64,000 bases of DNA from a virus (lineage: Duplodnaviria; Caudoviricetes), in the IMG/VR virus record IMGVR_UViG_3300025168_000080, positions 615 to 64,614 of that record. One strand, written 5' to 3'. How positions within the stretch are numbered: the first letter of the stretch is position 1; each line of letters opens with the position of its first letter. The notes beneath the pieces were generated by a model. That model had not been told where the DNA came from and ran no database searches. It saw only the letters and a program-made list of their open reading frames with translations. Of the stretch, positions 3,715-60,583 are shown piece after piece. The position numbers were made by a program, and so were the translations under genes.

Positions 3715-6700
3715 TTAAATCTATCTTGTAACATTTGTTCTCTACGCTCTTTTTGTTGACGTTTTAACTCTTCTAATCTTTGATAAGATGGATTAGATTC
3801 TCTACGTTCTTTAAGTTTACGCTCTCTTTCCATTTGCTTTTTATAGATTTCTGGTCTGTATTTTTTTAACTCAGATCTGGTCAAAGGTTTAACTTTAGGT
3901 GGTCCTTTACGCTCTGTTTCACGGTCTTCATTACTTTTTATTGCAAAATCAGAAAACTGTAGTATACGTAAAATCATTTCTTCTGGACTTGCGCCTCCAG
4001 CACCTAACTCTATTAGATTATTTACAAGTCTATCAACTTGAATTGCAGGTAAACCACCTAATCCAAGCATTGTATACAAAGCTTTTTTGTATTGTGCTTG
4101 AGCACCTGCTATTGATTTATCAATACTTGCTTGACTACGTAGTTTACCATTTTTATCAACTGGAGTTACGTTATATTGTCTTGCTTTAGCAAGTTGATCC
4201 AGTGCTTTTGCACTTTGCTCTAATATTGGAAGCGATGAAACTGCTCCAGCCCAAGGTTTTCCAGTAATTAAATCTGCTGTTCCATCTAATAATGAGCCTA
4301 TTATAAATATAGCATTTAAGTTACCTAACACCCCAGCTCTTAGTAAATCATCTTTATCATCGTCATCCATTGTAGATAATAAACCAGGTAGCCCCGAAGC
4401 CACATATTGGAATATTACTGGAAGCATAGTATGATATACTGCAAGTGTTCTTAGGTTTTGATATACGGTTCCTTTACCTTCAGTTCCACCAGACAGAACC
4501 TTACGTTTTAAGTTTACCAATGCCACAAATTCCTTTCGCATATACTGTTTAATAGATGTTTGAAACATATTTAATGCTCTTTGAAAAGTACCACCTGTTT
4601 GAAATCTATCTTTATCTTGTAAATCACTTGACTGTTGTGCTCTTTTAGTATCTCTTTCAAATCTTTTTATAGCATAGTCAATAGCTTGTTTTTCAGTAGC
4701 TTTAGGGTTCGCTTTTTTAAAGTTATTTTTATAAATAATATAATTTGGGACACCACCAATAATAATAGCACCTTTATCACCTTGTTTAACTAAATACATC
4801 ATAACACTAACAAGAGTGTTTAATTTTGACGATGGGACAAGACTTTCTACTTTGCTCGGAGCGTAAGTTTCTATCGTGTTTAAAATTCTTTCTCCATATC
4901 TATCTTGTATATATACAGAATTAGATTGAATTTCTTTCCATGTGCTAATTAATTTTGGTGCATTCATAGTTGCTGTTGCAGTCCATTTTCTAAATCCTAT
5001 TTCTGGTGAAGCTGCATACGCGGGAAATGAAGTTAACTGCTTAATAAATATAGTTGGATTAATTGCTAACTTACCAATAACAAAAGCACTTGTCATACCA
5101 TTTATCCAGTCTAATCCAGTTTCACTTTTGACACCACGGTTTGCAATTTTATCAATCATATCATTTACGTTAGTCATACCACCCTCACCATATGCGTCCG
5201 TTATTGCTCGTCTTACTGAAACATTGTTAAACATTTTGCTTAAATCATTAATAGGTTCAGACATCGCTGCAAACCAGTTCATGTCATTAACATAAGTTAA
5301 TAGTGCATTCATCTGATCAACATCTGCTATAGATTTTGCGTTTTCCATTCTAATTTTTGTTGATGCAGGTGCAGCCATAGTTTTGTAGGAATTTTTATCT
5401 GCTAACAAATCTATAGCATCAGATTGTTCTAAACCATCTCGATAAATTCTACCTGCATAATATTGATTCCAAGGCATTGATGTTCTGTACACTTTTTTGT
5501 AAGCTTCATTATAGGTTTCGTACATAGCTGGAAAAAACTCTTCTACTTGCCAACGACCTAATTCTCGTACCTCATCGTTAAGTTTAGATTCCATCTCTTT
5601 CATAATTCTTTTGTACTGTTTCTCACCATACTTTGTTTTAAAAGAATTTTCATTAGCTGGATCTTTAAACTGATTTACTAAGTAAGACATTTGATTTTGG
5701 CTTAATACTAAAGGAGTTGTACCATCCATACCTTCAAAAACAATACCTGTATCATACGCCTTACTATCTTTTTGCGCTTTACTTTGCCATTTTTTACCGT
5801 AAACTTCTTGTAATTTTAAATTAATCATTATAGTAGTTTCCATCTTACGTCTCTTGTAATCTAAAGTACCCTCATCAATTTTAAATGTTGATATTTCTTG
5901 TAGTTTACCACCAAACAATTCCCCTGGTATTCTGGATAATGTGGATACTAAAGATGCTAAATCTAAGTTACCCATAAGAAAATCCTTTACACTTCTGTTA
6001 GCATTAGTAAATATTTTAGGTACTCGTTTTTTTAACCCTGCTCGTTTTGCGGCAGAAACAACTGCTTTCTCAGCAAGTATATCTTTTGCTTTTGGGTTTC
6101 TAATTTTACGTGGATTAGATTTTGACTCAGGAAGCAATTCATCAAACTCTGGGTTCTCTATATAAAGATTTAGTTTTTTACCAGTAATTTCAAAATACGC
6201 AGTTTCAGCATCTTCTACATATTGCATATGTTTAATATATCGTTGCTGTTCTAATGCAGATTTACCAGTTTCAACTAATGCATTTAAATCTTCTATCACT
6301 GAAGCTAACTCAATTGTTTTATCTACTTCATAATCCATCATTAACTGTGCATTTATGAAGTTTAATACTATCTGTAAATTTGCTGCATCGACTCTTTGCT
6401 CGTCTGTTTGAAATGACTCTTTTTCTATTTCAGATATTTCATTACCTAACTTTTGTTGAAGTGTAGTGATTATAGATCCGTCTGTTTTAGAGTTTATACC
6501 ACCTATAAGATTTTTTATGTTTTCTAATCTTTTTGCTATTTCATCAGAAACTTTATATGCAATTTTTCTACCACCAGATATGTCAACATACTTACCGTTT
6601 AAAATTGTGTTTATTTTCTTTGTAAGATTTTCGTTTGTTTTTTTATTTACAAACTCTAAAACCTCCTCTTTTATATTCTCAATGTTTTTACTATCAGCAT

Positions 6701-36135: not shown

Positions 36136-37338
36136 TTAACATATGAACACTTGACCAACTACTCCATTAGCGTCAACCCTGTAACGTGTAGATCCAGCTC
36201 TGTAGTGACCAATACTTAAAAATGTTGTACCTGCTGAATCTGAATAAACAACATCATTTGCAACTGGGAATGTACCAGATCCATCATGATAATATGTTTG
36301 ATTTATAGTTGCAGTACATGCATTTTCTGGTCTTGCTGATAAAGAACTTGCATATGAAGTTAAACAAGCAGAGCATCCAGTGCTTATAGAATCAACGACT
36401 CCATTAACAACATATATAGCTGTATTAGAAGTAATTCTATAATATCCGTTTGTTAAAACACTCGCACCATTTGAGTCTGAAAAAACAAAATTACCAACTT
36501 GCGGTAAAGTATTTGTGTCAACCACAAAACTACCTCCTGCATTTCTGGCGAAATAATATGTTCTATCTTGCGCTGCACAACAAGATCCTTGGAAAGTACT
36601 ATTAACACCATTTGTTGTAAAAGAAGGTAATGTTGCAGGACATAATACTTTAACATTCCAAGCCGTACCAGAACAAGGTCCTACTACTTTTAAAGTTCCA
36701 GTTGTAGGTGTTAAACTTGGTTTAGGAATTACTAACGTATAATATATGTTTCCATTTGTTCCATTTAAGTTTGTATTAGTGGTTACCACACTTGTCGATC
36801 CACCATTCAAACCAAAAGAACTACCATTCCATACCGAAGTAGGTAATGTTTTTGGACTTTGAGATGCTAAAGTAGATGCTGTACAACCTGTTCTATCATC
36901 ATCACCTACAATATTTAAGTTATTACCTGTTCCAGCTGCATATCCATACGTATTTGAAGTTAAATCATTATATGTTGTACCATTAAACTCATAAGCAACC
37001 CCATCTGGCACACCTTGTGGGTAAAAATATACTACAATAGCACCTGTTGGGTTTCCACTTGTTATGGTTGCCTCAAAGTATCCAGTACCACTACCTGCAG
37101 ATAATGTGCCGCCACAAGGTATGTCTGGAGACGTAAATGATTTGCCATAAAATTCAGAGTAAGCGTGGGGAGCGTTTTGATCCACTGGCGTAGGAGTAGC
37201 ATCGTCATATCTTTTTACTAAAGAATCATCTTGAGGTGTACTACTACTTCCTGATAACGGAGCGTTGGTAGTACTTACTGTTGCAGACTCTGTATTTATC
37301 ATACTTGCTGATATGGTTCCTGAACTTGGTAATCCCAT
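36136..37338 (-). CDS. Tail tip/fibre-associated protein, paralogue of 16499-17788
   Basis: MGLPSSGTISASMIN...SEFYGKS N-terminal module typical of genes after S74-containing fibres; shares domains with 16499-17788. Confidence 0.7.
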   Translation of the reverse strand: MGLPSSGTISASMINTESATVSTTNAPLSGSSSTPQDDSLVKRYDDATPTPVDQNAPHAYSEFYGKSFTSPDIPCGGTLSAGSGTGYFEATITSGNPTGAIVVYFYPQGVPDGVAYEFNGTTYNDLTSNTYGYAAGTGNNLNIVGDDDRTGCTASTLASQSPKTLPTSVWNGSSFGLNGGSTSVVTTNTNLNGTNGNIYYTLVIPKPSLTPTTGTLKVVGPCSGTAWNVKVLCPATLPSFTTNGVNSTFQGSCCAAQDRTYYFARNAGGSFVVDTNTLPQVGNFVFSDSNGASVLTNGYYRITSNTAIYVVNGVVDSISTGCSACLTSYASSLSARPENACTATINQTYYHDGSGTFPVANDVVYSDSAGTTFLSIGHYRAGSTRYRVDANGVVGQVFIC

Positions 37339-40300
37339 TATTTTATCTTCTTTTTAAGATCTTCTATTTCCGCTTTTAATTCTTTTATGGCTTCTATTAG
37401 TAATCCAGATATGTTACCGTAAGCAACAGACTTCATACCCTCATCGTCTTCTTTTACAACTTCTGGAATAACTTTTTCTATTTCTTGAGCTATAACTCCA
37501 ATAGACTTTTCATTATCACCTATTTTATTAAACTCTACACCTCTTAATTTACTTACTTTTTCAAGTGAATTATCAATAGTTTTAATATTTTCTTTTACTC
37601 TAATATCTGAATAAGCTATAATATCTCCTGTAGCTCTAATAGTTCCACCGACATCAAGCTTATAACTTGGTCCAGTAACATTAATTCCTACATTACCACT
37701 ATTAAGAATAACCATTGTTTGACTTCCAACTGTATTTGTTCCATTAAAGAACTTAATACTATCACCTGCAAGTCTTAAAGTTTCTAAATTATTATTGTTG
37801 TTTTTTGCACTTAAACTTACTGCACTTTCTTCATAACTTGAGGTTAAAAATCTACTGCTTGTGTGAGTTACTACAAAAGGACCTGTAACACTGCTACTTG
37901 CCGTTTCAGTAGGTCCAATATTTACATTTCCACTTGAAAGTATTTGCATTACTTTTGTAGAACTTGAACCTGTGTAAAATGCAATTGAAGTGGTTGTTAT
38001 AAGACTTATTTGATTTGGTGTACCAAGTCGCGTACTACCATTTACAGTAATATAAGCGGTTGAATCACTATTTAATAAATTTAAACTACCTGCAGTTGTT
38101 CCACCTTTTATATTTGAGGTTGCAGTTGGTAAAACTAAATTACCTGTAGAATCTATACGCATTCTTTCTGTATCTACACCATTGTTTGTTCTTGTGTGAA
38201 ATGTTAATTTTCCACCAAAATCTCCATCTGTAGTATTGTCTTTTCCACCCCTAACAGAAGCCATATCAGTTACACTACCGCCAGAAGTATATTTTCCATT
38301 AAAAACAATACCATTATTTATACCTGAGTCGTAAGCAGCGGTATTGCTAAGCTTTATAGAATAAATTGTTGCATCACTAATGTCTAATTTAGCTCCAGGT
38401 CCAGTCGTTCCGATCCCAACGTTGCCAGGAATTGTTACATCACCATTATGGCCAACAACCATTCTTGAAGCAGAGTTAAGACGATCATAAATTTGGTAAT
38501 CTGTACCAGCACCTATATTGCAACCAGTTTCCCATTGATTATTTCCATCTGCTTTATACCATGTGCTACAATTTTGCCCACTTGTTGTAGATTCAATTGT
38601 TAATACGGAATTTGCGCCACTAACATGGAATACTGAGGTAGGAGAAGTTGTCCCGACCCCGACGTCGCCGCCGTGTAGAATAGTAACAGCTACTCCACCT
38701 GCTGTACTTGTTCCATTATCATTAAGGGGTTTTATTGTATATTTAGTATCGTCTACACTTGTAGCAAAAACCCTTTGATTAGCAGTTGCTCCATTGTCAG
38801 ATAATACAATTCCTGCAAAAGAATCTCCTTCAATTATCATTTGTCCTCTATCAGTGCCACCGTCTATGTGTAGCCTTGTAAAACCATAAGATGCACTATG
38901 TAAAGTTCCAGGACTTGTCGTCCCAATACCAACATTTCCAGTTTGCTTTATTACCATTTGCATTCTTGACGTGATAGCTCCACCTGCTATTCCGCTTGCA
39001 GTAGAACATAAAAAAGAATGCTCACCTACCTGTTGTTGATATAGATTAGCATAACCTGGATCTGAAGTAGTACCATTTATAAACTGGGCACCTGATGTTG
39101 AAAATTTCCAATTAGTAGTAACACACGTAAAAGAATCTTGACCAACTCCGTCTGTATGGCCTTGAATTGCGCTTTGTTCACCTATTCTTAATTGAGCAAC
39201 ATAAGTAACCATTCCAGTCTCTGGCGTAATACCAAGACCAATATTTTGATTAGCTACATCTTGTTTTAAAACACTATTACCTAAGGTATCACCATCTGGC
39301 GTCCACATAGGAATAGTTCTTAATGTACCTGATCCACCTGGTACACCTGGTATATCACCACCTAAAACTTTAACTACATTACCAGAAGCGTCGGTACCTA
39401 ACATGTAAGTTGGAGTACCTGTGTTGTTTGTGGAATTGTAAGCATTGAATTTAATTGCGCCAGTACTACCAATATTTAAAACTTCTATACCTGCAATTGC
39501 ATCATCTAACATTCTAATAGCAAAAGTAGGCTCTCCATCTCCTGTACCCTCTCTTTTACCACCAAGAGCAACTCCATAATTATTAGTTGTTGAAGTACCA
39601 AAAAACATATTTGTAAAACCGCCATCGTCTGTAGTTGCGGATGGGTGTAATCTTAAAAAACAATCTCTATCAAATTGAGTTGTAACTTGTGATCTTTGAA
39701 CTTCTAACTTTCCTGTAGGCCCAGTTGTCCCAATCCCGACGTTACTTCCTGGTAACAATAATAAATCAGAAGTTGCATTTATTTTTAAATCAATACCAGT
39801 TGTTTGTATACTTCCCATAGTAGACTCGCTGCCAGCAGAACCATACTTAAAGTTCATAAATCCAACACCTGAAGTATTTACTGTAATATCACCACCTGTT
39901 ACATCAAGTTTAGAATCAGGATCATCCGTCCCGATACCTACGTTGCCAGAACTCTCTATAACCATTCTTTTTACTCCTGCTGTTGTTCCATTAGGAGCAG
40001 TCATAAAGTAAATTTCTCCACCATCAGCACCTGTGGCGACTTGCTCTAAATGTATAGAAGCTAAATAACCCCTATTACTTTTTCCTGTTAATCTACCACC
40101 TGCTGTTGCTACATCTAATTTTTGATGTGAGAAAATTTGACCTGCTTCATCAACCTCGATTGTTCCTGCTGTTGTACCAATAGTAATTGCATCATTTGTA
40201 CCACCTATTGATTCACATTTAAAAGCCCAAGCTTCATTTCCTGTATGATTTATATTAAAAAATGTACTATTGTCAGTAACATTAAAACTTTGTACAAATG

Positions 40301-43300
40301 ATGTAGCAGTTGATGTAATATTTCCTGTTGTAGTTATAGCACCTGAGTCTATTGTTCCTGCAAAAGTTGCGTTAGCGCCTGTTAAAGTTAAAGTATCACT
40401 TGTTCCTAAAGATGCACTATTAGATATTCTAAATGAATTATCAGTACCATCTTTTCCAATAGTCCATTGTGTTGTGTTTGTACCGCTGCCATTGTCTGTT
40501 CCAAATTCTAACTCAGCATCACTACTTGCTGATATTAACATACTCGTAGCACCGTTTGACCTTAGTAATTTAAAGCCTAATGCGTCGCCAGTTACCTGAG
40601 TTACTTGACCATTAAACACATGGTCATCTGTAGTTGCGTTACCTAAAGTAGCATTTCCATTAACGTTAAGATTTCCTGAAAAAGTTGCGGTACCTGCATC
40701 GGTTAAATGCATTCCAGTAACAGCTGGAGATGCTGTATTTTGAAAATACCAACCATTTGATTGAAATACTGTTGCTCCTTCCCCGGTTTCTCTCAAATAT
40801 GTATTTTCTCCAGCAGCATGCCAAATTTTAAAATCTCCGCCACCACCAAACTCTAATTTTTTATCATCAAGTAGTACCACAGCACCTGCAAAAGTTGTGT
40901 TATTACCACTAACTGTTATTGGTGCATTACCTAAAGTTTCTGAATCTGTAACAGAACTTGGTCCTTCCCATAAAGCTACAGTTTGCCCTGTACCTGCGCC
41001 TGATAGTACAGATGAGTTATCTACTTTTTGCCATTCACCAGAACCAACATCATCATTCCATATTACCCAATCACCAACACTCCAAGTGTTAGGCTCTGTG
41101 CCTGCTCCATTAGGTGTTGCGCTACCTGCTTCACTACAGATATAGTAGTATCCAGATGTTTGTGTTACACCACTTAAATCAGGGGCTCCATATATTGGGG
41201 AAAATATGTATGCGCTTGCTGTTGCACTTATTGCTGTGTCTAATTCGTAAACTGTAGAAGAAGTAACGGATGCTACTTTTACAGTACCTGTTATTCCAGC
41301 TCCTGTAACTACAGCTCCAACCAAAGTAGGTGTATTACCAGCAGCATCAAGTATAGCTGCAGAAACTGTTAATGTCGTACTGGAAGAAGTTGTCCCTGTT
41401 GATGTAGCGGATATACCTGCCTGCCAGGTTCCTCTATATATTGTAGCTCCAGTAATTAAACCGTCTACATAACCTTTTGTTGTTAGAGTAGATGATGCGT
41501 TTCCAGTAGATGTAGCTGTTGTTGCAAATGCCTGTGTTCCAAAAGTTGCGTTTTGAAGATTATCAAAACCTAATACATCTGTAAAAGTTCCACTAATTCT
41601 TTTTTGAAGTTTAAATGAACCCGCACCAGTGTTAACTACTTGTCTATATGTATTGTCTGTTTGACTATCATCAGCTCCAATATATAATTGTCCTGCGTCA
41701 ACAAACATATTATCTCTTGAGGTAACCGTGAGAGCACTTGTGTTTCCCGCAAAATTTGCGTCGTTATTTGCTCCTATTGTTATTGCAGTGCCATCATTAG
41801 TTATTATTTTAAAAGTATCATTGGATATTGTTCCTAAGTAAACATCTGAATTATTAGATTGATATGCACCAAAAACCGATGTACCTCTTGTGCTTCTAAT
41901 TATATTACCACCTGTTGGAGCAATATCTACCATATAACCATTAGCAGGTGTTATTCCACCAATACCAATAGCACCTGCAAAAGTTGCATTTGAAGAAGTG
42001 TCTAAAGTTAAAACCTCTGTGTTGTTAGTACCAAATCTTAAAGCTTGACCATCTTGTGTACCAATACCAAAAGCTGCTCCTGTGCTTTGTATTATACTTG
42101 AGCCTGCCCCTAATCCAAACCTTGCATTAGCAGAAGATCCTACATAAATATTTTGTGTACCATCAGTAACCCTGTAGTTTTGTGCTGAAGTTCCTACTAT
42201 TGAGACATTGCCTGCAAAAGTTGTATCTCCTGAATTTAATATTTCAAAAACATCTAATCCATTTCTACCAATTCTAAATTTACCTGATGCACCTATGTTT
42301 TCTATAAACCAAGTGCTATTACTATAAGTAGTATCAGAAGTTCCAAAATATATAGCTGGTCTACCTGCGCCAAAACTTCCTATTTTAACTTCATCAACTG
42401 AACTACTTGCAGCAGATGTGGCAGCTAAATTACTAAACGTAACCCCTAAGTCTGTTGTTTCAAACTTTTTAGAATTGTCGTAATATAATTCAACTGCTGC
42501 GTTTTGAGCAGCTCTAATAATGCTTTCTGTACCACTGGCAGATCTAACTATAAAATTAGGCGCATCAATTCTTAAATCTGAACCTGAACTAACAATATGA
42601 CTTGCGGTTCCATCGTGAAATAATTGCATATCTCCACCACTTCCAAACTTTAATCTATCATCTGTAGATCCGCTTGAATCTAAAAAAGTAACAACAGCTC
42701 CTGCAGTCATTGTACCACCAGCAAGTGGTAAGAAAGGTCCGTTCCAAGTTCCTCCCTCTGCTGTAATATTTCCAGATGCATCTGATACCAAAGTACCTGC
42801 CCCGTAAGTGTTGAATTTAATAGCACCGTCTGAAGCAATACGCATTTTTTCTGCTGCGTTAGTCCAAAATCTCATAGAATTATCACTATGTTGGTACCTT
42901 AAACGACCAACATCAGCATCACTTCCATCTCCAAAAACTACTTGACCATTATCATCTGTTCCAGATATTATTGACATACCTGAATTATTAGTGTTGGAAA
43001 TTGTAAAAGGGTGTGAACCACTTAGAGTAGGTATTGTGGTTGAACCACCTGACACGTGTAGTACACTACCAGGAGTAATCGTACCAATCCCAACTTTGCC
43101 TGAGCTATCAATGACCATTCTTGCTGTACCACCTGCGCTAACGTCGTTAAATGTTAAATAACCACCATCAGTCTCAATTTTATAATATCTTTCACTATTT
43201 TGAATACCTAAATTAATAGGTTCACTGCCAGTAGTAGAAAGATGTAGTTTAGCAGTAGGATTAGTCTCCCCGATACCGACGTTGCCTGAACTATCAATAC

Positions 43301-43589
43301 GCATTCTTTCAGAACCTTGAGTAAACCACCTGTGATAGTTAGCACCTAATGCGTCTTTAACAATTTGATAATCTGTTGAAACAAAAGCGCCATCTGAACT
43401 TCTTCTTGTATCAAAAGTTAAATTATTACCACCTGAGATTGTTGTAATATTGTATGTATTAGTAGCATCGGTATCTTCTATATAAATTGAAGGTGACGTG
43501 CTTGATAAGTGAAGCAAACCCGAGGGCGTAGTCGTCCCAATACCTACCTTACCATCTACTGAAAATCCACTTAACCATGTAAAAGCCAT
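37338..43589 (-). CDS. Long modular tail fibre with C-terminal intramolecular chaperone (peptidase S74)
   Basis: 2083 aa; repeated RM.I...GNVGIGT..P junctions; C-terminal SDIRVKENI...GVIAQEIE...VAYGNISGLLIEAIKEL plus coiled coil. Confidence 0.92.
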   Translation of the reverse strand: MAFTWLSGFSVDGKVGIGTTTPSGLLHLSSTSPSIYIEDTDATNTYNITTISGGNNLTFDTRRSSDGAFVSTDYQIVKDALGANYHRWFTQGSERMRIDSSGNVGIGETNPTAKLHLSTTGSEPINLGIQNSERYYKIETDGGYLTFNDVSAGGTARMVIDSSGKVGIGTITPGSVLHVSGGSTTIPTLSGSHPFTISNTNNSGMSIISGTDDNGQVVFGDGSDADVGRLRYQHSDNSMRFWTNAAEKMRIASDGAIKFNTYGAGTLVSDASGNITAEGGTWNGPFLPLAGGTMTAGAVVTFLDSSGSTDDRLKFGSGGDMQLFHDGTASHIVSSGSDLRIDAPNFIVRSASGTESIIRAAQNAAVELYYDNSKKFETTDLGVTFSNLAATSAASSSVDEVKIGSFGAGRPAIYFGTSDTTYSNSTWFIENIGASGKFRIGRNGLDVFEILNSGDTTFAGNVSIVGTSAQNYRVTDGTQNIYVGSSANARFGLGAGSSIIQSTGAAFGIGTQDGQALRFGTNNTEVLTLDTSSNATFAGAIGIGGITPANGYMVDIAPTGGNIIRSTRGTSVFGAYQSNNSDVYLGTISNDTFKIITNDGTAITIGANNDANFAGNTSALTVTSRDNMFVDAGQLYIGADDSQTDNTYRQVVNTGAGSFKLQKRISGTFTDVLGFDNLQNATFGTQAFATTATSTGNASSTLTTKGYVDGLITGATIYRGTWQAGISATSTGTTSSSTTLTVSAAILDAAGNTPTLVGAVVTGAGITGTVKVASVTSSTVYELDTAISATASAYIFSPIYGAPDLSGVTQTSGYYYICSEAGSATPNGAGTEPNTWSVGDWVIWNDDVGSGEWQKVDNSSVLSGAGTGQTVALWEGPSSVTDSETLGNAPITVSGNNTTFAGAVVLLDDKKLEFGGGGDFKIWHAAGENTYLRETGEGATVFQSNGWYFQNTASPAVTGMHLTDAGTATFSGNLNVNGNATLGNATTDDHVFNGQVTQVTGDALGFKLLRSNGATSMLISASSDAELEFGTDNGSGTNTTQWTIGKDGTDNSFRISNSASLGTSDTLTLTGANATFAGTIDSGAITTTGNITSTATSFVQSFNVTDNSTFFNINHTGNEAWAFKCESIGGTNDAITIGTTAGTIEVDEAGQIFSHQKLDVATAGGRLTGKSNRGYLASIHLEQVATGADGGEIYFMTAPNGTTAGVKRMVIESSGNVGIGTDDPDSKLDVTGGDITVNTSGVGFMNFKYGSAGSESTMGSIQTTGIDLKINATSDLLLLPGSNVGIGTTGPTGKLEVQRSQVTTQFDRDCFLRLHPSATTDDGGFTNMFFGTSTTNNYGVALGGKREGTGDGEPTFAIRMLDDAIAGIEVLNIGSTGAIKFNAYNSTNNTGTPTYMLGTDASGNVVKVLGGDIPGVPGGSGTLRTIPMWTPDGDTLGNSVLKQDVANQNIGLGITPETGMVTYVAQLRIGEQSAIQGHTDGVGQDSFTCVTTNWKFSTSGAQFINGTTSDPGYANLYQQQVGEHSFLCSTASGIAGGAITSRMQMVIKQTGNVGIGTTSPGTLHSASYGFTRLHIDGGTDRGQMIIEGDSFAGIVLSDNGATANQRVFATSVDDTKYTIKPLNDNGTSTAGGVAVTILHGGDVGVGTTSPTSVFHVSGANSVLTIESTTSGQNCSTWYKADGNNQWETGCNIGAGTDYQIYDRLNSASRMVVGHNGDVTIPGNVGIGTTGPGAKLDISDATIYSIKLSNTAAYDSGINNGIVFNGKYTSGGSVTDMASVRGGKDNTTDGDFGGKLTFHTRTNNGVDTERMRIDSTGNLVLPTATSNIKGGTTAGSLNLLNSDSTAYITVNGSTRLGTPNQISLITTTSIAFYTGSSSTKVMQILSSGNVNIGPTETASSSVTGPFVVTHTSSRFLTSSYEESAVSLSAKNNNNNLETLRLAGDSIKFFNGTNTVGSQTMVILNSGNVGINVTGPSYKLDVGGTIRATGDIIAYSDIRVKENIKTIDNSLEKVSKLRGVEFNKIGDNEKSIGVIAQEIEKVIPEVVKEDDEGMKSVAYGNISGLLIEAIKELKAEIEDLKKKIK
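38403..43553 (-). repeat. Eight dispersed 24-bp GC-rich junction repeats (consensus GGC AAC GTN GGK ATY GGG ACG ACT)
   Basis: Copies at 43530-43553, 43263-43286, 43077-43100, 39924-39947, 39723-39746, 38916-38939, 38646-38669 and 38403-38426. Confidence 0.8.
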
Positions 43590-51483: not shown

Positions 51484-53106
51484 TTAACTTGTTTTAATTC
51501 TTGCGTGTGTAACAATAGCGTTTGTGCTTAAAATTGTAGTAGCAACAGATACTGCATTAGTCAATGCATTTTTAGTAACCTTACAAGGATCGATAATTCC
51601 TAACTCATACATATCACCATACTTCTCATTTTTAACATCATATCCGAAGTGTGCGCTCTTGTCTTCTAATTCATCACAAATATTTCCAGCTTCAATCCCA
51701 GCGTTTTCTAATATCTGATAGAATGGTTCTTGTATAGCTTGAGCTAATATAATAGTAGCAACATCATCCTCATTATAAAAATCTGAAGGAATCTGTGATA
51801 ATTTATCTATCATATAGTCTCCAATATTATACAAAGCTAATCCTCCTCCTGGAATTGTACCACTTTCAAGTGCAGACTTGACTGCACATACCGAGTCATC
51901 GACTCGGTCAAATTTTTCATTCTGCTCTACATCTGAATCACCACCTACATAAATACATCCAATTGCACCACTAAGATTAGCAACACGTTCGTCTATAAAT
52001 TTACGTTCACTTAAGTTACTGGTGTTTTGTTGTTGTTCTTTAAGTTCAGATATTCGTTGTTGTATTTCTTCAGTTAGTTGGTTATGCTTTATAATTACAG
52101 ATGATTGTTTACCTACTATAATTTTATCAACGTGTCCAAGATCAGAAGTTTTTATTAAACTTAAATCATCACCAGTCTTTTCAGAATAGTAAGTTGCTCC
52201 AATAGACACGGCAATGTCTTGCATTAACTCGTGTTGTTTAAATCCAAAGTTTGGTGGAACTATATTACAAAACTTTAATCCATTACGAACAACGTTAGCT
52301 GCAAGTGTGTTGACAACATTTGTGGATAAATTACCTATGATTAAAAATTTCTGATTGTTTTGTATAATTGGTTTTAGAATATTTTCTATTTGCAATATAT
52401 TACTTACATCAGTATCACACACTAAAACTTTTACGTCTTCCAGGATACACTCATCTTTTCTTTGGTTATTAATAAATAACGTTGAGGTATACCCACGATC
52501 AATTCTAATTCCATTTGTAACTTCCGCATATGTTTCTGAAGTCATTGATTTTTCTACAGTAACAATTCCGTTAGGACCTACCTTGTTGTAAGCCTGTGCA
52601 ATTATAGAACCAATTTCTGAATCATTGTTTGCAGATATTGTTGCTACATCTAATAATCTTTTCTTACTTACTTTTTTAGAAAGTATATCTAATTTTTTAT
52701 TTACTTCTTTTGATTTAGATAGTATGTGTTTTACAACCTCAATGGTATTGCTTTTATGTTTCTCTATTAACTCAGTGCCTCTGTTTATTAAACACTCAGT
52801 TAAAACAATTGCAGTAGTTGTTCCATCACCAGCTGTGTTTGCAGTTCTATTAGCTGCGTCCTTCATCATTTGTATAGAAAGGTTCTCAATTGGATTATCT
52901 AAAAATACGCTCTTAGCTACAGTAACTCCATCTTTTGTAATAGTCATTCCTCCTACATGTTCTGGGGATTCTATTAAAACGGTTTTACCGCGTGGGCCTA
53001 ACGTACTCTTAACTGCTTTTGAAATTTTTGTGATTCCTGAAATAAGTTTATTTCGTGCTTCAGAATCAAATGATAAGTCTTTAGGTATGTAACCTTGTGT
53101 GCTCAT
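51484..53106 (-). CDS. groEL: Chaperonin GroEL
   Basis: AVKSTLGPRG, ITKDGVTVAK, AGDGTTTA, GGGLAL, GIIDPCKVT; 540 aa. Confidence 0.97.
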   Translation of the reverse strand: MSTQGYIPKDLSFDSEARNKLISGITKISKAVKSTLGPRGKTVLIESPEHVGGMTITKDGVTVAKSVFLDNPIENLSIQMMKDAANRTANTAGDGTTTAIVLTECLINRGTELIEKHKSNTIEVVKHILSKSKEVNKKLDILSKKVSKKRLLDVATISANNDSEIGSIIAQAYNKVGPNGIVTVEKSMTSETYAEVTNGIRIDRGYTSTLFINNQRKDECILEDVKVLVCDTDVSNILQIENILKPIIQNNQKFLIIGNLSTNVVNTLAANVVRNGLKFCNIVPPNFGFKQHELMQDIAVSIGATYYSEKTGDDLSLIKTSDLGHVDKIIVGKQSSVIIKHNQLTEEIQQRISELKEQQQNTSNLSERKFIDERVANLSGAIGCIYVGGDSDVEQNEKFDRVDDSVCAVKSALESGTIPGGGLALYNIGDYMIDKLSQIPSDFYNEDDVATIILAQAIQEPFYQILENAGIEAGNICDELEDKSAHFGYDVKNEKYGDMYELGIIDPCKVTKNALTNAVSVATTILSTNAIVTHARIKTS

Positions 53107-57075: not shown

Positions 57076-57372
57076 ATGAAAGATTTAAAAAGAATTAAAG
57101 CAATAGCAAAGGATATTATATCCGATAGAGAGTGGGTAAACGATAGTCACTCTGAATCAGAACACAAAGGTGTTGTATACGGTTTAGAATCGTTATTATG
57201 GCGTCTTGAAACAACTGATGATACCATTGAAAAAGATTCAGTAGAAGAAATGGTAAAAGAAATTAGATTTTATCTACTATGTTTTTCAGACGGTTCGATG
57301 AGAGGTGATAATTTAGCTAATGCTATTACAGAAGTAATTAATCACTATAACTTAGAAGACTTAAACTTATGA
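57076..57372 (+). CDS. Early hypothetical protein
   Basis: 98 aa; stop overlaps the next start (ATGA). Confidence 0.65.
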   Translation: MKDLKRIKAIAKDIISDREWVNDSHSESEHKGVVYGLESLLWRLETTDDTIEKDSVEEMVKEIRFYLLCFSDGSMRGDNLANAITEVINHYNLEDLNL

Positions 57373-58037
57373 ATATATTAGAACTATTTAGTGGTAGTCG
57401 TAGTATCGGCAAAGTAGGAACGGATAGAGGACACAATGTGTTCTCTTCCGATTTCACTGATTTCCCTAACACAAACTATGTTGTGGACATATTAGAATTT
57501 GATGTAAGCAAGGTACCATTTGTTCCAGATATTATATGGGCAAGTCCACCATGTGAATCATTTAGTGTAGCGTCCATTGGGCGACATTGGGTGAAGGGTA
57601 AGGTGTTTACACCAAAGACTGAAAACGCTCAATTAGGCATCAAGATACTAATGAAAACAATGGAAATTATTGAACACTTTCAAAGTGTTAATAGTAAACT
57701 TATTTGGTATGTAGAGAACCCACGTGGAAAAATGAGAAAGTCACCTCATTGGGCAAACGTAAAACATAAATTAAATGGTGTTACGTATTGTCAGTATGGT
57801 GATGATAGGATGAAACCTACTGACATATGGAATAATAACCCTATGTGGGTACCACGTCCTATGTGTAAGAACGGTATGCCGTGTCATACATCTGCACCTC
57901 GAGGATCTTCGACTGGCACTCAAGGACGCTCATCGTATTACGATAGAAGTAAAGTCCCTTCTGAACTATGTGAGGAAGTAATCAAAGCAAGTGAAATTAT
58001 GAATATAATATTATACAAAAACTATGAAAATAATTAA
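57369..58037 (+). CDS. Short C5-cytosine methyltransferase-like protein
   Basis: Motif I ILELFSGS, motif IV WASPPCESFS, motif VI VENP, YCQYG...KPT; only 222 aa. Confidence 0.85.
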   Translation: MNILELFSGSRSIGKVGTDRGHNVFSSDFTDFPNTNYVVDILEFDVSKVPFVPDIIWASPPCESFSVASIGRHWVKGKVFTPKTENAQLGIKILMKTMEIIEHFQSVNSKLIWYVENPRGKMRKSPHWANVKHKLNGVTYCQYGDDRMKPTDIWNNNPMWVPRPMCKNGMPCHTSAPRGSSTGTQGRSSYYDRSKVPSELCEEVIKASEIMNIILYKNYENN

Positions 58038-59244: not shown

Positions 59245-59847
59245 ATGAACAAAACAGAAAATTATTTTGAAGCATTAGCCAAGGTTAATGTCAAAGACAA
59301 AGTAGAAAAAAAAGGTAATTTCAATTACTTATCGTGGGCCAATGCTTGGGCATTGATTAAACTTAAACATCCTAATGCACAAAGAAAAGTGTATGAAGAT
59401 CAAGCAAGTGGATTAAACTTTTTTACTGATGGGCGTACTGCTTATGTAAAGGTAGGTATAATAGTAAACGAGATAGAACATATTGATTATTTACCTATAA
59501 TGGACTTCAGAAACAATTCTATCTTAATAGATAAAATTTCATCTATGGACGTTAATACTGCAATTCAAAGATCTACTGCTAAAGCAATAGCTATGCACGG
59601 TCTTGGATTATCACTATGGGTAGGTGAAGATATTATTAACCAAACTACTAAGACAACTCCTGTAGTTAAACAAGCTGTGACTTATACTTTAAACGTAGGT
59701 GACGATAATTGGGATAAAGTCTTAAAATATGTGGTTGCCAATAAAACTATTGGTTTAGAAAAAATAGTTAAAAACTTATCAGTCAAGTATAAAATCTCTG
59801 CTACAGTAAAAAAAGAGATATCTAAATTATTGACTGATGCCAAGTAG
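59245..59847 (+). CDS. Sak/Rad52-like single-strand annealing protein (DUF1071-like)
   Basis: VEKKGNFNYLSWANAW...LPIMDFRN...DVNTAIQRSTAKAIAMHGLGLSLWVGED. Confidence 0.88.
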   Translation: MNKTENYFEALAKVNVKDKVEKKGNFNYLSWANAWALIKLKHPNAQRKVYEDQASGLNFFTDGRTAYVKVGIIVNEIEHIDYLPIMDFRNNSILIDKISSMDVNTAIQRSTAKAIAMHGLGLSLWVGEDIINQTTKTTPVVKQAVTYTLNVGDDNWDKVLKYVVANKTIGLEKIVKNLSVKYKISATVKKEISKLLTDAK

Positions 59848-60583
59848 TTTAGATACAAGAATAGACATTATAGAGAAACTTCGTGATGACAAGGAGTATT
59901 ACGGAAGCTATGGTAAACAGTTTTTGTCTAATTCAGATATAATTAAACTTCTTAAAGATCCTACTCAATTTAGAGTTAGACAGGCACCAACCAAACCAAT
60001 GGTTGTAGGCTCGTATTTTCATACTGCAATGTTAGAGCGTGATAAGATAGACAACTTCAAAATAGTTGACGTTTCTTCCAGAACGACTAAAGCATATAAA
60101 GATGTATGTCCACCAGGAGAAATACTACTTCTTAAAAAGGAAGAGGAAGAGGTATTAGGATGGGTAAATAAAATGACAAGTAATCTTGAAATGCACGAGT
60201 ATATTTATGCAGACAACAATCAATTTGAAGTTCCTGAAGTAGATTCTATTATGGGTAATATGTGGAAGGGTAAAGCTGACATAATACACGATGATTTTAT
60301 CATTGATATTAAAACTTCAGGAGATATTGATAAGTTTATGTACAGTGCAAAAACTTACAATTACGACAGTCAAGCCTACATATACCAACGCATGTTTGGT
60401 AAGCCAATGGTGTTTTTTGTTATATGCAAAACCACTGGGCGTTTAGGTATATTTGATTGTTCTAATGAATTTATAATGTCTGGCCAACGAAAAGTTGAAG
60501 AGGCAACAGAAATTTATAACAAATATTTTAGCGATGAAGCAACTGAAGATATTAATGTATTTATTCATAGACAAACTTTATAA
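59837..60583 (+). CDS. PD-(D/E)xK exonuclease (RecE/DUF3799-like)
   Basis: LSNSDI...GSYFHTAMLE...KGKADI...IIDIKTS...YNYDSQAYIY; adjacent to the SSAP. Confidence 0.85.
   Translation: MPSSLDTRIDIIEKLRDDKEYYGSYGKQFLSNSDIIKLLKDPTQFRVRQAPTKPMVVGSYFHTAMLERDKIDNFKIVDVSSRTTKAYKDVCPPGEILLLKKEEEEVLGWVNKMTSNLEMHEYIYADNNQFEVPEVDSIMGNMWKGKADIIHDDFIIDIKTSGDIDKFMYSAKTYNYDSQAYIYQRMFGKPMVFFVICKTTGRLGIFDCSNEFIMSGQRKVEEATEIYNKYFSDEATEDINVFIHRQTL

What the first reader, a model, noticed from the sequence alone, without database searches (positions are those of the whole stretch)
38403..43553. Tail-fibre module junctions encoded by conserved, codon-atypical, quasi-palindromic DNA: candidate shuffling sites
Seen: eight G[NKD]VG[IV]G[TE]-type junctions use codons that look rare elsewhere in this AT-rich genome. 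The first Gly is GGC in 5/8, the Gly after Ile/Val is GGG in 6/8 and Thr is ACG in 5/8, giving consensus GGCAACGTCGGKATYGGGACGACT. The consensus core CGTC-N8-GACG is an inverted repeat around an 8-bp asymmetric spacer. Two other junctions near the 3' end (about 37670-37700 and 37910-37930) use ordinary AT-rich codons. Established: inverted arms around a 6-8-bp spacer is tyrosine-recombinase site geometry, and Sak-type SSAPs recombine short homologies. Inference: selection acts on the DNA, making in-frame crossover points for exchanging, adding or deleting fibre modules as a host-range diversification system. No recombinase gene is recognisable here, so the enzyme would be host-encoded or the Sak/exonuclease pair.
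Basis: partly seen in the sequence, partly recalled or inferred. Interest (0 to 1): 0.8.

Follow-up and report, generated by a model that had tools for sequence, protein, structure and literature searches.

The report
Recombination joints in a phage fibre
A marine phage's giant tail-fibre gene spells one short structural motif in rare GC-rich codons that many unrelated phages share, and module swaps between related phages begin and end at that motif, a variant of a known way phages rebuild host-recognition fibres.

Summary
The codon observation is real. In the 2083-aa fibre gene (37338-43589, minus strand), 34 of 64 motif codons end in G/C against 7.2 expected (P about 4e-17). The excess is confined to the seven codons G-N-V-G-I-G-T.

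The claimed palindrome CGTC-N8-GACG occurs in no actual copy. No integrase or resolvase is present, so the site-specific-recombinase reading fails.

The motif matches the capping loop between trimeric beta-helix modules of S74-type fibres (PDB 8OND relative).

In an unselected IMG/VR sample (79 loci, 137 copies), the same position-specific spelling is over-used whatever the GC content: GGC..GTC..GGG ACG.

A 246-nt module of the window is 95% identical to another phage exactly between two motif copies, with about 39% identity outside. That phage switches to a third parent at the second motif.

Block ends cluster within 10 nt of motifs but are not confined to them.

Best reading (0.65): short-homology recombination at the motif, plausibly by the phage's Sak/exonuclease pair, shuffles modules in frame. 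Why the spelling is GC-rich remains inferred.

This is a new variant of T-even-type conserved-motif recombination. This scan has reported the same phenomenon on other DNA several times.

The parts
37338..43589 (-). Tail-fibre gene, 2083 aa, a chain of modules ending in an S74 intramolecular chaperone
   Evidence: ORF. Peptidase_S74 at aa 1994-2046, E 3.8e-15. PDB relatives 6F45, 7DC3 and 8OND.
43530..43553 (-). Motif copy M1 (GKVGIGTT)
43263..43286 (-). Motif copy M2 (GNVGIGET)
   Evidence: Aligned to the 8OND chain motif.
43077..43100 (-). Motif copy M3 (GKVGIGTI)
39924..39947 (-). Motif copy M4 (GNVGIGTD)
   Evidence: Metagenome contigs of 613 and 1147 nt match 39937-40229 and then diverge here.
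39723..39746 (-). Motif copy M5 (SNVGIGTT)
38916..38939 (-). Motif copy M6 (GNVGIGTT). Upstream edge of the block shared with L102.
38646..38669 (-). Motif copy M7 (GDVGVGTT). Downstream edge of the block shared with L102, and the point where L102 switches to L038-like sequence.
38403..38426 (-). Motif copy M8 (GNVGIGTT)
38638..38954 (-). Module (CDS nt 4636-4952) 91% identical in DNA to IMG/VR locus L102, with no DNA similarity in the flanks
   Evidence: Per-segment identities are: 234/246 between the motifs, 35/90 on either side.
37908..37931 (-). Degenerate copy (GNVNIGPT), ordinary AT-rich codons
37674..37697 (-). Degenerate copy (GNVGINVT), ordinary AT-rich codons
40356..42227 (-). Central zone with 7 copies of a second junction motif (N/D)ATFAG in ordinary codons. 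Copies lie at 42210-42227, 41973-41990, 41745-41762, 41535-41552, 40884-40901, 40674-40691 and 40356-40373.
   Evidence: Shared DNA blocks start or end at or near copies. Codon identity among copies is 0.759 against 0.549 expected, P=0.004.
37452..37610 (-). Peptidase_S74 chaperone domain
59245..59847 (+). Sak-like single-strand annealing protein (candidate enzyme, link inferred)
   Evidence: phrog_659, E 1.2e-45
59837..60583 (+). Exonuclease, partner of the annealing protein (link inferred)
   Evidence: phrog_412 exonuclease VIII, E 2.1e-24

Best explanation
The eight motifs encode the capping loops that separate successive trimeric beta-helix modules of an S74-type tail fibre. These seven codons are the only stretch of DNA that otherwise unrelated modules share. 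Short-homology (homeologous) recombination between motif copies, in one genome or between co-infecting phages, therefore joins modules in frame and swaps, adds or removes them. The likely enzymes are the phage's own Sak-like annealing protein with its exonuclease, or the host's RecA pathway. The GC-rich spelling is one shared by many phages whatever their base composition. It is most likely kept away from the genome's AT-rich equilibrium by repeated exchange or biased repair at the joint, by second-order selection for a good annealing site, or by both.

Shown: the codon skew, its sharp limits, its recurrence in other phages, and block ends at the motif.
Inferred: the enzyme, the direction of cause between spelling and recombination, and any benefit for host range.
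For: - Codon skew: 34 of 64 against 7.2 expected, P 4e-17, confined to 7 codons.
- An internal control motif shows no skew.
- In an unselected IMG/VR sample found with a fully degenerate pattern (79 loci, 137 copies), several codons are over-used against each ORF's own usage. Position 0 GGC: 54 against 29.1. Position 2 GTC: 41 against 17.9. Position 5 GGG: 35 against 13.1. Position 6 ACG: 48 against 17.1, with ACC 7 against 18.2. This also holds with one copy per locus (GGG P 7e-6, ACG P 2e-8) and in ORFs with GC3 of 0.45 or more.
- It is not a dipeptide effect. Gly-Thr outside motifs uses ACG 13.6% and GGG 7.3% (n=1673); inside, 35.2% and 22.8% (n=219).
- The exact 21-mer occurs in at least 120 IMG/VR stretches. 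The 80 loci read had 33-64% GC and always held it in frame.
- The cultured Synechococcus phage S-CRES1 has 12 copies, 11 with ACG.
- Window against L102, in order from upstream of M6 to downstream of M7: 35/90, 18/24, 234/246, 20/24, 35/90. L102 against L038: 26/90 before M7 and 272/300 after it.
- All-against-all comparison of 312 loci with strict scoring gave 153 block ends. 13 lie within 10 nt of a motif against 6.4 expected; 11 lie at 11-150 nt against 39.6 expected. For blocks of at least 150 nt and 88% identity: 13 against 3.5. These come from about 7 independent pair junctions.
- Motif copies within a locus share more identical codons than codon usage predicts in 22 of 38 loci with 4 or more copies.
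- Structure: the region around M2 aligns to PDB 8OND (Bd2133, E 9e-11). Caulton et al. 2024 (PMC10769870, passages read) describe such motifs as capping loops on beta-helix edges.
- Sak plus exonuclease are present.
Against: - 129 of 153 block ends lie more than 150 nt from any motif, so the motif is not the only boundary.
- With looser scoring, the excess within 60 nt is only 39 against 31.6 expected (P=0.079). Part of the near-motif peak could therefore be alignment extension into a conserved patch.
- Blocks also end at the (N/D)ATFAG motif, which has ordinary codons. A GC-rich spelling is therefore not needed for a joint.
- Distant relatives and cultured pelagiphages spell GNVGIGT in ordinary codons.
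- The window's own copies are not homogenised (0.443 against 0.442).
- The motif 24-mers at the edges of the shared block are only 75% and 83% alike, which is short and imperfect homology.
- The main mosaics come from metagenome assemblies. Among four cultured pelagiphages, only 1 of 29 shared blocks had ends within 11 nt of a motif.
- No recombination event was observed directly.
Confidence: 0.65

Rival explanations
1. Passive boundary marker. Modules are exchanged by any recombination, but only chimeras joined at the capping loop fold, so surviving junctions cluster there. The GC-rich spelling then has an unrelated cause and plays no part in recombination.
For: - The motif sits at structural domain edges.
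- Block ends also fall at a second motif with ordinary codons.
- Many lineages keep the motif without the GC-rich spelling.
Against: - Illegitimate joins would rarely be in frame and precise to 10 nt or less.
- This reading leaves the position-specific, GC-independent codon pattern unexplained.
Confidence: 0.15
2. Translation-level signal. Rare or especially accurate codons at the capping loop slow or secure decoding, so that each beta-helix module folds or trimerises co-translationally.
For: - The atypical codons are rare in this genome.
- They sit at domain edges.
- No phage tRNA compensates.
Against: - The same amino acid, Gly, prefers GGC at position 0 and GGG at position 5 in the same genes.
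- ACG is preferred over ACC even in GC-rich phages, where neither is rare.
- A second conserved motif in the same gene shows no skew.
- Relatives with the same loop use ordinary codons.
Confidence: 0.08
3. The mosaic pattern is an artefact of metagenome assembly, with contigs of different strains joined at a shared repeat. The codon skew would be real but unrelated.
For: The window, L102 and L038 are all assembled from metagenomes. Conserved repeats are classic sites of chimeric joins.
Against: - The motif copies at the junctions differ between the partners (18/24, 20/24 and 16/24). No long exact word is therefore shared there as the sequences stand.
- Contigs of four further runs from four studies show pieces that start, stop or diverge at the same motifs.
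- Two cultured pelagiphages of different morphotypes share a 260-nt block at 93% identity with ends 10-11 nt from motif copies.
Confidence: 0.05
4. Site-specific recombination at an inverted-repeat core site, by a tyrosine recombinase or an invertase.
For: The consensus sequence, though no real copy, contains CGTC-N8-GACG (finding text).
Against: - 0 matches in the window.
- The arms would be only 4 bp.
- No Phage_integrase or Resolvase match is in the 64.6-kb record, which CheckV rates complete.
Confidence: 0.02

Closest known systems
Recombination between conserved motifs in T-even distal tail-fibre and adhesin genes: gp37 motifs and gp38 glycine-rich motifs. Tetart et al. 1996 and 1998 as cited in Trojet et al. 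2011 (PMC3157838, passages read).
   Same: Short, highly conserved, glycine-rich motifs separate variable segments of a host-recognition protein. [quoted passage not shown]
   Different: - No sequence relationship was found: Pfam gives only Peptidase_S74.
- Here the motif is a beta-helix capping loop that separates whole modules of 60-110 aa or more.
- Its spelling runs against the genome's codon usage and is shared by phages of 33-64% GC.
- The evidence here is comparative, not from crosses.
Conserved DNA motifs flanking receptor-binding domains of coliphage tailspikes, proposed as recombination hotspots. Pas et al. 2023 (PMC10408124, passages read). See also the Klebsiella RBP preprint 10.64898/2026.05.12.724579 (passages read).
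   Same: Short DNA stretches conserved across phage genera are proposed to promote exchange of receptor-binding parts.
   Different: - Those motifs (44, 95 and 20 bp) sit around a single RBD, not as an in-frame array inside one gene.
- No synonymous-site or codon-usage analysis appeared in the passages I read.
- Those authors found no correlation between motif presence and the number of events.
MAT (mosaic adhesive trimer) and S74 fibres: Bdellovibrio Bd2133 and Bd3182, K1F endosialidase, T5 L-shaped fibre. Caulton et al. 2024 (PMC10769870, passages read).
   Same: A C-terminal S74 chaperone, intertwined trimeric beta-helix modules, and a repeated capping-loop motif (their consensus is V-G-G/N-pi-x-x-P-x-x-x-L). 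Direct sequence match to 8OND.
   Different: That work is structural and cell-biological. In the passages I read, 'recombination' appears only in the methods, and nothing is said about the DNA spelling of the loop.
Relaxed homologous recombination by phage Rad52-like/Sak annealing proteins as a source of mosaicism. De Paepe et al. 2014 (PMC3945230) and Neamah et al. 2017 (PMC5499656); search listing and start of abstracts only.
   Same: A Sak-like protein with an adjacent exonuclease is encoded here. Such enzymes are reported to recombine diverged substrates.
   Different: Nothing here links this enzyme to the fibre joints. That step is inferred.

Membership tests
Conserved-motif recombination in tail-fibre genes (T-even gp37/gp38 type): works like it | Short conserved motifs separate variable segments within one fibre or adhesin gene | tested here: met
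   8 GNVGIGT-type and 7 (N/D)ATFAG copies lie between dissimilar modules.
Conserved-motif recombination in tail-fibre genes (T-even gp37/gp38 type): works like it | Motif conserved at nucleotide level among otherwise divergent phages | tested here: met
   Position-specific codon excess in 79 unselected loci. The exact 21-mer occurs in at least 120 stretches; the 80 loci read had 33-64% GC.
Conserved-motif recombination in tail-fibre genes (T-even gp37/gp38 type): works like it | Exchange junctions map within or next to the motifs | tested here: met
   Window/L102/L038 three-way switch. 13 of 153 block ends lie within 10 nt against 6.4 expected, with depletion at 11-150 nt. This is comparative evidence only; no cross was done.
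Conserved-motif recombination in tail-fibre genes (T-even gp37/gp38 type): works like it | Sequence homology to gp37/gp38 motifs (membership proper) | tested here: not met
   Pfam finds only Peptidase_S74 in the fibre. PDB hits are 8OND, 6F45, 7DC3, 8ON4 and 8OML. Not filed as a member, only as working alike.
S74-chaperone trimeric beta-helix fibres (MAT / endosialidase-type) | C-terminal Peptidase_S74 intramolecular chaperone domain | tested here: met
   PF13884, E 3.8e-15, 56.3 bits against a cut-off of 22. 6F45 E 1.2e-8 and 7DC3 E 3.2e-7.
S74-chaperone trimeric beta-helix fibres (MAT / endosialidase-type) | Repeated capping-loop motif at beta-helix edges | tested here: met
   aa 90-133 align to 8OND residues 10-53 through the motif. 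The loop is described in PMC10769870. The match of chain positions 152/153 to the authors' E813/N814 domain border is my inference.
S74-chaperone trimeric beta-helix fibres (MAT / endosialidase-type) | Intertwined trimeric beta-helix fold of the modules | not tested
   No structure prediction was run.
Tyrosine-recombinase or invertase crossover site | Inverted arms around a 6-8-bp spacer in the actual copies | tested here: not met
   CGTC-N8-GACG has 0 matches in the window.
Tyrosine-recombinase or invertase crossover site | Cognate site-specific recombinase gene | tested here: not met
   PF00589 and PF00239 have no match in the 64,614-bp record, with positive controls ringing.

The most novel reading that the evidence does not exclude
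The GC-rich 21-mer is an actively maintained 'universal adaptor'. Under this reading, synonymous sites of the capping-loop codons are held by second-order selection (evolvability), or by a self-reinforcing exchange and biased-repair loop, to one spelling across phages of 33-64% GC. The same spelling was also seen in one contig labelled as a giant-virus MAG. Fibre modules could then be traded in frame between lineages that share no other DNA. AT-rich phages such as this one would pay a codon-usage cost to stay compatible with that common pool.
Probability: 0.3. Interest if true: 0.75.

Novelty: new variant of a known kind. Interest (0 to 1): 0.55.

Why it matters
Tail fibres decide which cells a phage can infect, and how they diversify so fast is a standing question. 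This case gives a concrete handle that can be measured in sequence data. It has three parts:
- a 7-codon structural loop whose silent positions sit far from the genome's mutational equilibrium;
- the same position-specific spelling shared across very different phages;
- module swaps that begin and end at that loop.

If the spelling itself promotes exchange, it would be a clear case of selection on synonymous sites for recombination. It would also be a natural design rule for in-frame fibre engineering in laboratory phage-host pairs. If it is only a footprint of exchange, such as biased repair, it still serves as a marker for finding recombination joints in uncultured phage genomes.

Tried and rejected
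- Megablast of the gene against 50,697 phage records found no match. tblastn found only relatives below 60% identity in 192 records. No close cultured relative was therefore available.
- A full-text search for the motif strings (NVGIGT, GNVGIGT-type words) found 0 papers. Searches found the general idea of motif-mediated fibre recombination, but nothing on this motif's DNA spelling.
- Translation by phage tRNAs: no tRNA gene in the window.
- S-CRES1 against S-CRES2 as an isolate test of breakpoints was uninformative, with 14 differences in 3954 nt.
- Four cultured pelagiphages gave 29 shared blocks of at least 80 nt. Only the Jormungand/Kolga 260-nt block has ends near motif copies. The pelagiphage fibre N-terminal block ends near query nt 1826-1890, not at a motif.
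- Metagenome contigs (runs X1-X4):
  - Of the 15 joints listed, by my count 11 have at least one end within 10 nt of a motif copy and 6 have both ends there.
  - The shorter sides are only 19-50 nt and likeness was set to 90, so by the tool's own warning these may come from other organisms or repeats.
- The first breakpoint test (megablast) could not exclude extension of alignments into the conserved patch. It was repeated with +1/-3 scoring and small X-drop.
- One search was an unfinished script that only printed counts.
- Not tried: structure prediction, complex prediction, protein-atlas and large protein-database searches.
- Not pursued: host identity.

Full report
**What is there**

The window is nearly all of a 64,614-bp IMG/VR virus record with about 30% GC. 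The region of the finding is one ORF, 37338-43589 on the minus strand, of 2083 aa. Its C-terminus is a Peptidase_S74 intramolecular chaperone (aa 1994-2046, E 3.8e-15). Neighbouring ORFs include a YadA-stalk-like fibre, portal, large terminase and virion proteins. tblastn finds only distant relatives (below 60% identity) in 192 phage records, mostly marine cyanophages, vibriophages and pelagiphages, annotated as tail fibres. Host identity was not pursued.

**The observation**

- Eight copies of [GS][NKD]VG[IV]G[TE] lie at aa 13, 102, 164, 1215, 1282, 1551, 1641 and 1722. Two degenerate copies lie at aa 1887 and 1965.
- 34 of the 64 motif codons end in G or C. The rest of the gene predicts 7.2 for the same amino acids (exact Poisson-binomial tail 4e-17). 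51 other ORFs of the window predict 8.8 (3e-14).
- Aligned on the motif, the excess covers codon offsets 0 to 6 only, and the flanks are ordinary. An unguided scan shows that the six richest 8-codon windows of the gene all lie on or overlap motif copies.
- More than half of the gene's GGG codons (10 of 18) lie in the 56 motif codons.
- The palindrome does not hold. CGTC-N8-GACG has 0 matches in the window and is a property of the consensus only.
- The eight copies are not homogenised. Their pairwise codon identity is 0.443 against 0.442 expected. The copies lean towards one GC-rich spelling without being locked to it.

**A control inside the gene**

The repeat finder showed a second repeated element. 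It encodes (N/D)ATFAG seven times between aa 455 and 1078. Its codons are ordinary: 7 of 42 end in G/C against 4.7 expected, P=0.18. They are more alike between copies than codon usage predicts (0.759 against 0.549, P=0.004). A conserved repeated motif in this gene is therefore not GC-rich as such.

**What the motif is in the protein**

phmmer against PDB sequences aligns aa 90-133, through motif M2, to chain 8OND_A (Bdellovibrio Bd2133, E 9e-11). Other copies align to further parts of that chain and to 8ON4 and 8OML.

Caulton et al. 2024 (PMC10769870, passages read) solved these 'mosaic adhesive trimer' fibres. They are intertwined trimeric beta-helix modules related to the K1F endosialidase and the T5 L-shaped fibre. 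[quoted passage not shown]

If chain residue 1 is N662, chain positions 152/153 (E/N, just after a motif copy) coincide with the authors' E813/N814 border between two beta-helix domains. This last point is my inference. The amino-acid conservation is therefore structural, and 'module junction' is a fair description. I ran no structure prediction.

**Is the spelling peculiar to this phage?**

- Among 80 loci fetched by protein similarity, with no bias on codons, 106 motif copies were found in 29 loci. The GC-rich spelling (GGC AAC GTC GGG ATC GGG ACG) is strong in the closest relatives. Observed against expected G/C endings: L009 73 against 18.0; L014 28 against 6.2; L038 26 against 6.0; L008 8 against 1.8. 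It is absent in more distant ones: L011, L016, L032, L039 and L084 are close to expectation.
- Cultured pelagiphages also use ordinary codons.
The 80 loci read had 33-64% GC and always held it in frame as GNVGIGT in fibre-like ORFs.
- For an unselected sample I scanned with the fully degenerate pattern. This gave 79 loci and 137 copies.
- Against each ORF's own synonymous usage there is a position-specific excess. Position 0 GGC: 54 against 29.1. Position 2 GTC: 41 against 17.9. Position 5 GGG: 35 against 13.1. Position 6 ACG: 48 against 17.1, with ACC 7 against 18.2. Position 1 AAC is not significant (61 against 51.9, P=0.11).
- The pattern holds with one copy per locus (GGG P 7e-6, ACG P 2e-8). 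It holds in all three GC3 classes, including ORFs with GC3 of 0.45 or more (ACG 14 against 5.7, ACC 2 against 5.5).
- Gly-Thr dipeptides elsewhere in the same ORFs do not show it: ACG 13.6% and GGG 7.3% (n=1673), against 35.2% and 22.8% in motifs (n=219).
- The cultured Synechococcus phage S-CRES1 has 12 copies, 11 with ACG.
- Within loci, copies share more identical codons than expected in 22 of 38 loci with four or more copies. Many of those loci had been fetched by the exact 21-mer.

One amino acid prefers different codons at different positions, and the preference ignores base composition. tRNA adaptation, rare-codon pausing and decoding accuracy therefore do not explain the pattern. A constraint or a homogenising process acts on the nucleotide sequence itself.

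**Do breakpoints fall in the motif?**

In the window's own gene, CDS nt 4636-4952 (window 38638-38954) is 91% identical to locus L102, with no DNA similarity outside.

| Comparison | Segment | Identical / total |
|---|---|---|
| Window against L102 | 90 nt upstream of M6 | 35/90 |
| Window against L102 | M6 | 18/24 |
| Window against L102 | between M6 and M7 | 234/246 |
| Window against L102 | M7 | 20/24 |
| Window against L102 | 90 nt downstream of M7 | 35/90 |
| L102 against L038 | 90 nt before M7 | 26/90 |
| L102 against L038 | 300 nt after M7 | 272/300 |

L102 is therefore window-like up to the motif and L038-like from the motif on.

Other pairs show the same:
- L038/L102 have a replaced cassette between two motif copies.
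- L151/L122 share a 612-nt block at 93.6% identity that runs from motif to motif.

In the central zone, shared blocks start or end at or near (N/D)ATFAG copies. Examples are CDS nt 2034, 2705-2708 and 2904 at copies, and 3203 and 1350 within 14 nt of copies. Block order also differs between the window and L009.

**Statistics on 312 loci, all against all**

- Megablast gave 225 block ends in motif-bearing ORFs. 14 lie inside a motif against 4.8 expected (no shuffle reached this). Within 60 nt the count is only 39 against 31.6 (P=0.079), so extension into the conserved patch could contribute.
- I repeated the test with +1/-3 scoring, small X-drop and 8 redundant loci dropped. This gave 153 ends in 36 loci.
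  - 13 ends lie within 10 nt of a motif, against 6.4 expected.
  - 11 ends lie at 11-150 nt, against 39.6 expected.
  - 129 ends lie further away.
- For blocks of at least 150 nt and 88% identity, 13 of 74 ends lie within 10 nt against 3.5 expected (P 0.0075 and 0.002 for the two zones).
- The 13 ends represent about 7 independent pair junctions.

Inside module arrays, ends sit on the motif. The motif is far from the only place where similarity stops.

**Independent material**

- Twenty marine or seawater metagenome runs from 13 studies hold parts of the gene, with shares from 0.69 down to 0.12.
- Contigs of four of them, laid on the gene, give pieces that begin or end at motif copies. Examples are 43280-43553, 40675-40897 and 41742-41976. 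Contigs of 613 and 1147 nt match 39937-40229 and then run on unlike the window at M4. The joints are too short-sided to count as more than a hint.
- Among cultured phages, podovirus Jormungand and siphovirus Kolga share a 260-nt block at 93.5% identity with ends 10-11 nt from motif copies. It is the only one of 29 shared blocks among four isolates with that property.

**Enzymes**

No Phage_integrase or Resolvase match exists in the record. A Sak-like annealing protein (59245-59847, E 1.2e-45) overlaps the start of an exonuclease gene (59837-60583, E 2.1e-24). Such proteins are reported to recombine diverged substrates (PMC3945230 and PMC5499656, listing and abstract starts only). Their link to the fibre joints is inference.

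**Reading**

- Most likely (0.65), the capping-loop codons are the crossover points at which fibre modules are exchanged in frame by short-homology recombination.
- The GC-rich spelling is a pool-wide DNA-level state kept away from AT-rich equilibrium by exchange, by biased repair, by selection for a good annealing site, or by a mix of these. Which of them applies is open.
- Four results weigh against a necessary role for the spelling:
  - the ordinary-codon NATFAG joints;
  - the ordinary-codon relatives;
  - the lack of homogenisation in this window;
  - the imperfect identity of the junction motifs themselves (75% and 83%).
- Rivals: a passive boundary marker (0.15), a translation signal (0.08), assembly artefact for the mosaics (0.05), and site-specific recombination (0.02).

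**Comparison with what is known**

Recombination at conserved motifs in fibre and adhesin genes is established for T-even phages (Tetart et al., as cited in PMC3157838, passages read). It has been proposed for coliphage tailspikes (PMC10408124) and for Klebsiella RBPs (preprint). The loop's structure is known (PMC10769870).

I did not find in print the synonymous-site, GC-independent, position-specific spelling of this loop, or its coincidence with module swaps in marine phages. The finding is therefore a new variant of a known kind.

Earlier notes of this scan describe the same phenomenon on several other genomes. They are AI notes that I did not test, apart from seeing the same CCTGCAAAAGTTGC word here.

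Noticed in passing
window 40356-42227 (7 copies): A second in-frame junction motif, (N/D)ATFAG, is spelled mostly AAC GCA ACT TTT GCA GGA. Its codons are more alike between copies than expected (0.759 against 0.549, P=0.004). Blocks shared with L007-L010 start or end at or near its copies.
   Followed up: partly
window 42453-42505 (CDS nt 1085-1137, aa about 362-379, LYYDNSKKFETT): A 50-nt patch matches more than 30 divergent loci at 80-93% DNA identity. Metagenome contigs have loose ends at 42452/42453 and 42491. The loci were partly selected through this peptide, so the conservation is not an unbiased result. It may be a third kind of joint.
   Followed up: no
window 38140-38175 and 42832-42853: Two modules keep the upstream strand (ERMRIDS, EKMRIAS), but the loop is replaced (GNLVLPT, DGAIKFNT). 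Several metagenome joints end at these places.
   Followed up: no
window 51484-53106: A phage-encoded GroEL chaperonin (phrog_5725, E 1e-128). Earlier notes of the scan mention GroES-like genes nearby.
   Followed up: no
window 57369-58037: A DNA methyltransferase (phrog_757, E 6e-28) lies in the early region next to the Sak/exonuclease pair.
   Followed up: no
L101 (IMG/VR contig labelled GVMAG), 1970 on the minus strand: The exact GC-rich 21-mer also occurs in frame in a 1146-codon ORF of a contig labelled as a giant-virus MAG.
   Followed up: no
L321 2790-3049 and L324 4803-5062: Cultured pelagiphages of different morphotypes on the same host strain (podovirus Jormungand, siphovirus Kolga) share a 260-nt fibre module at 93.5% identity, bounded by motif copies.
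   Followed up: partly
L319 4090-8043 (Synechococcus phage S-CRES1 gp108): Nt 267-407 of this fibre gene match minor tail protein genes of many Gordonia and Arthrobacter phages at 72-78% DNA identity. This is an unexpected cross-phylum DNA match that I did not examine.
   Followed up: no
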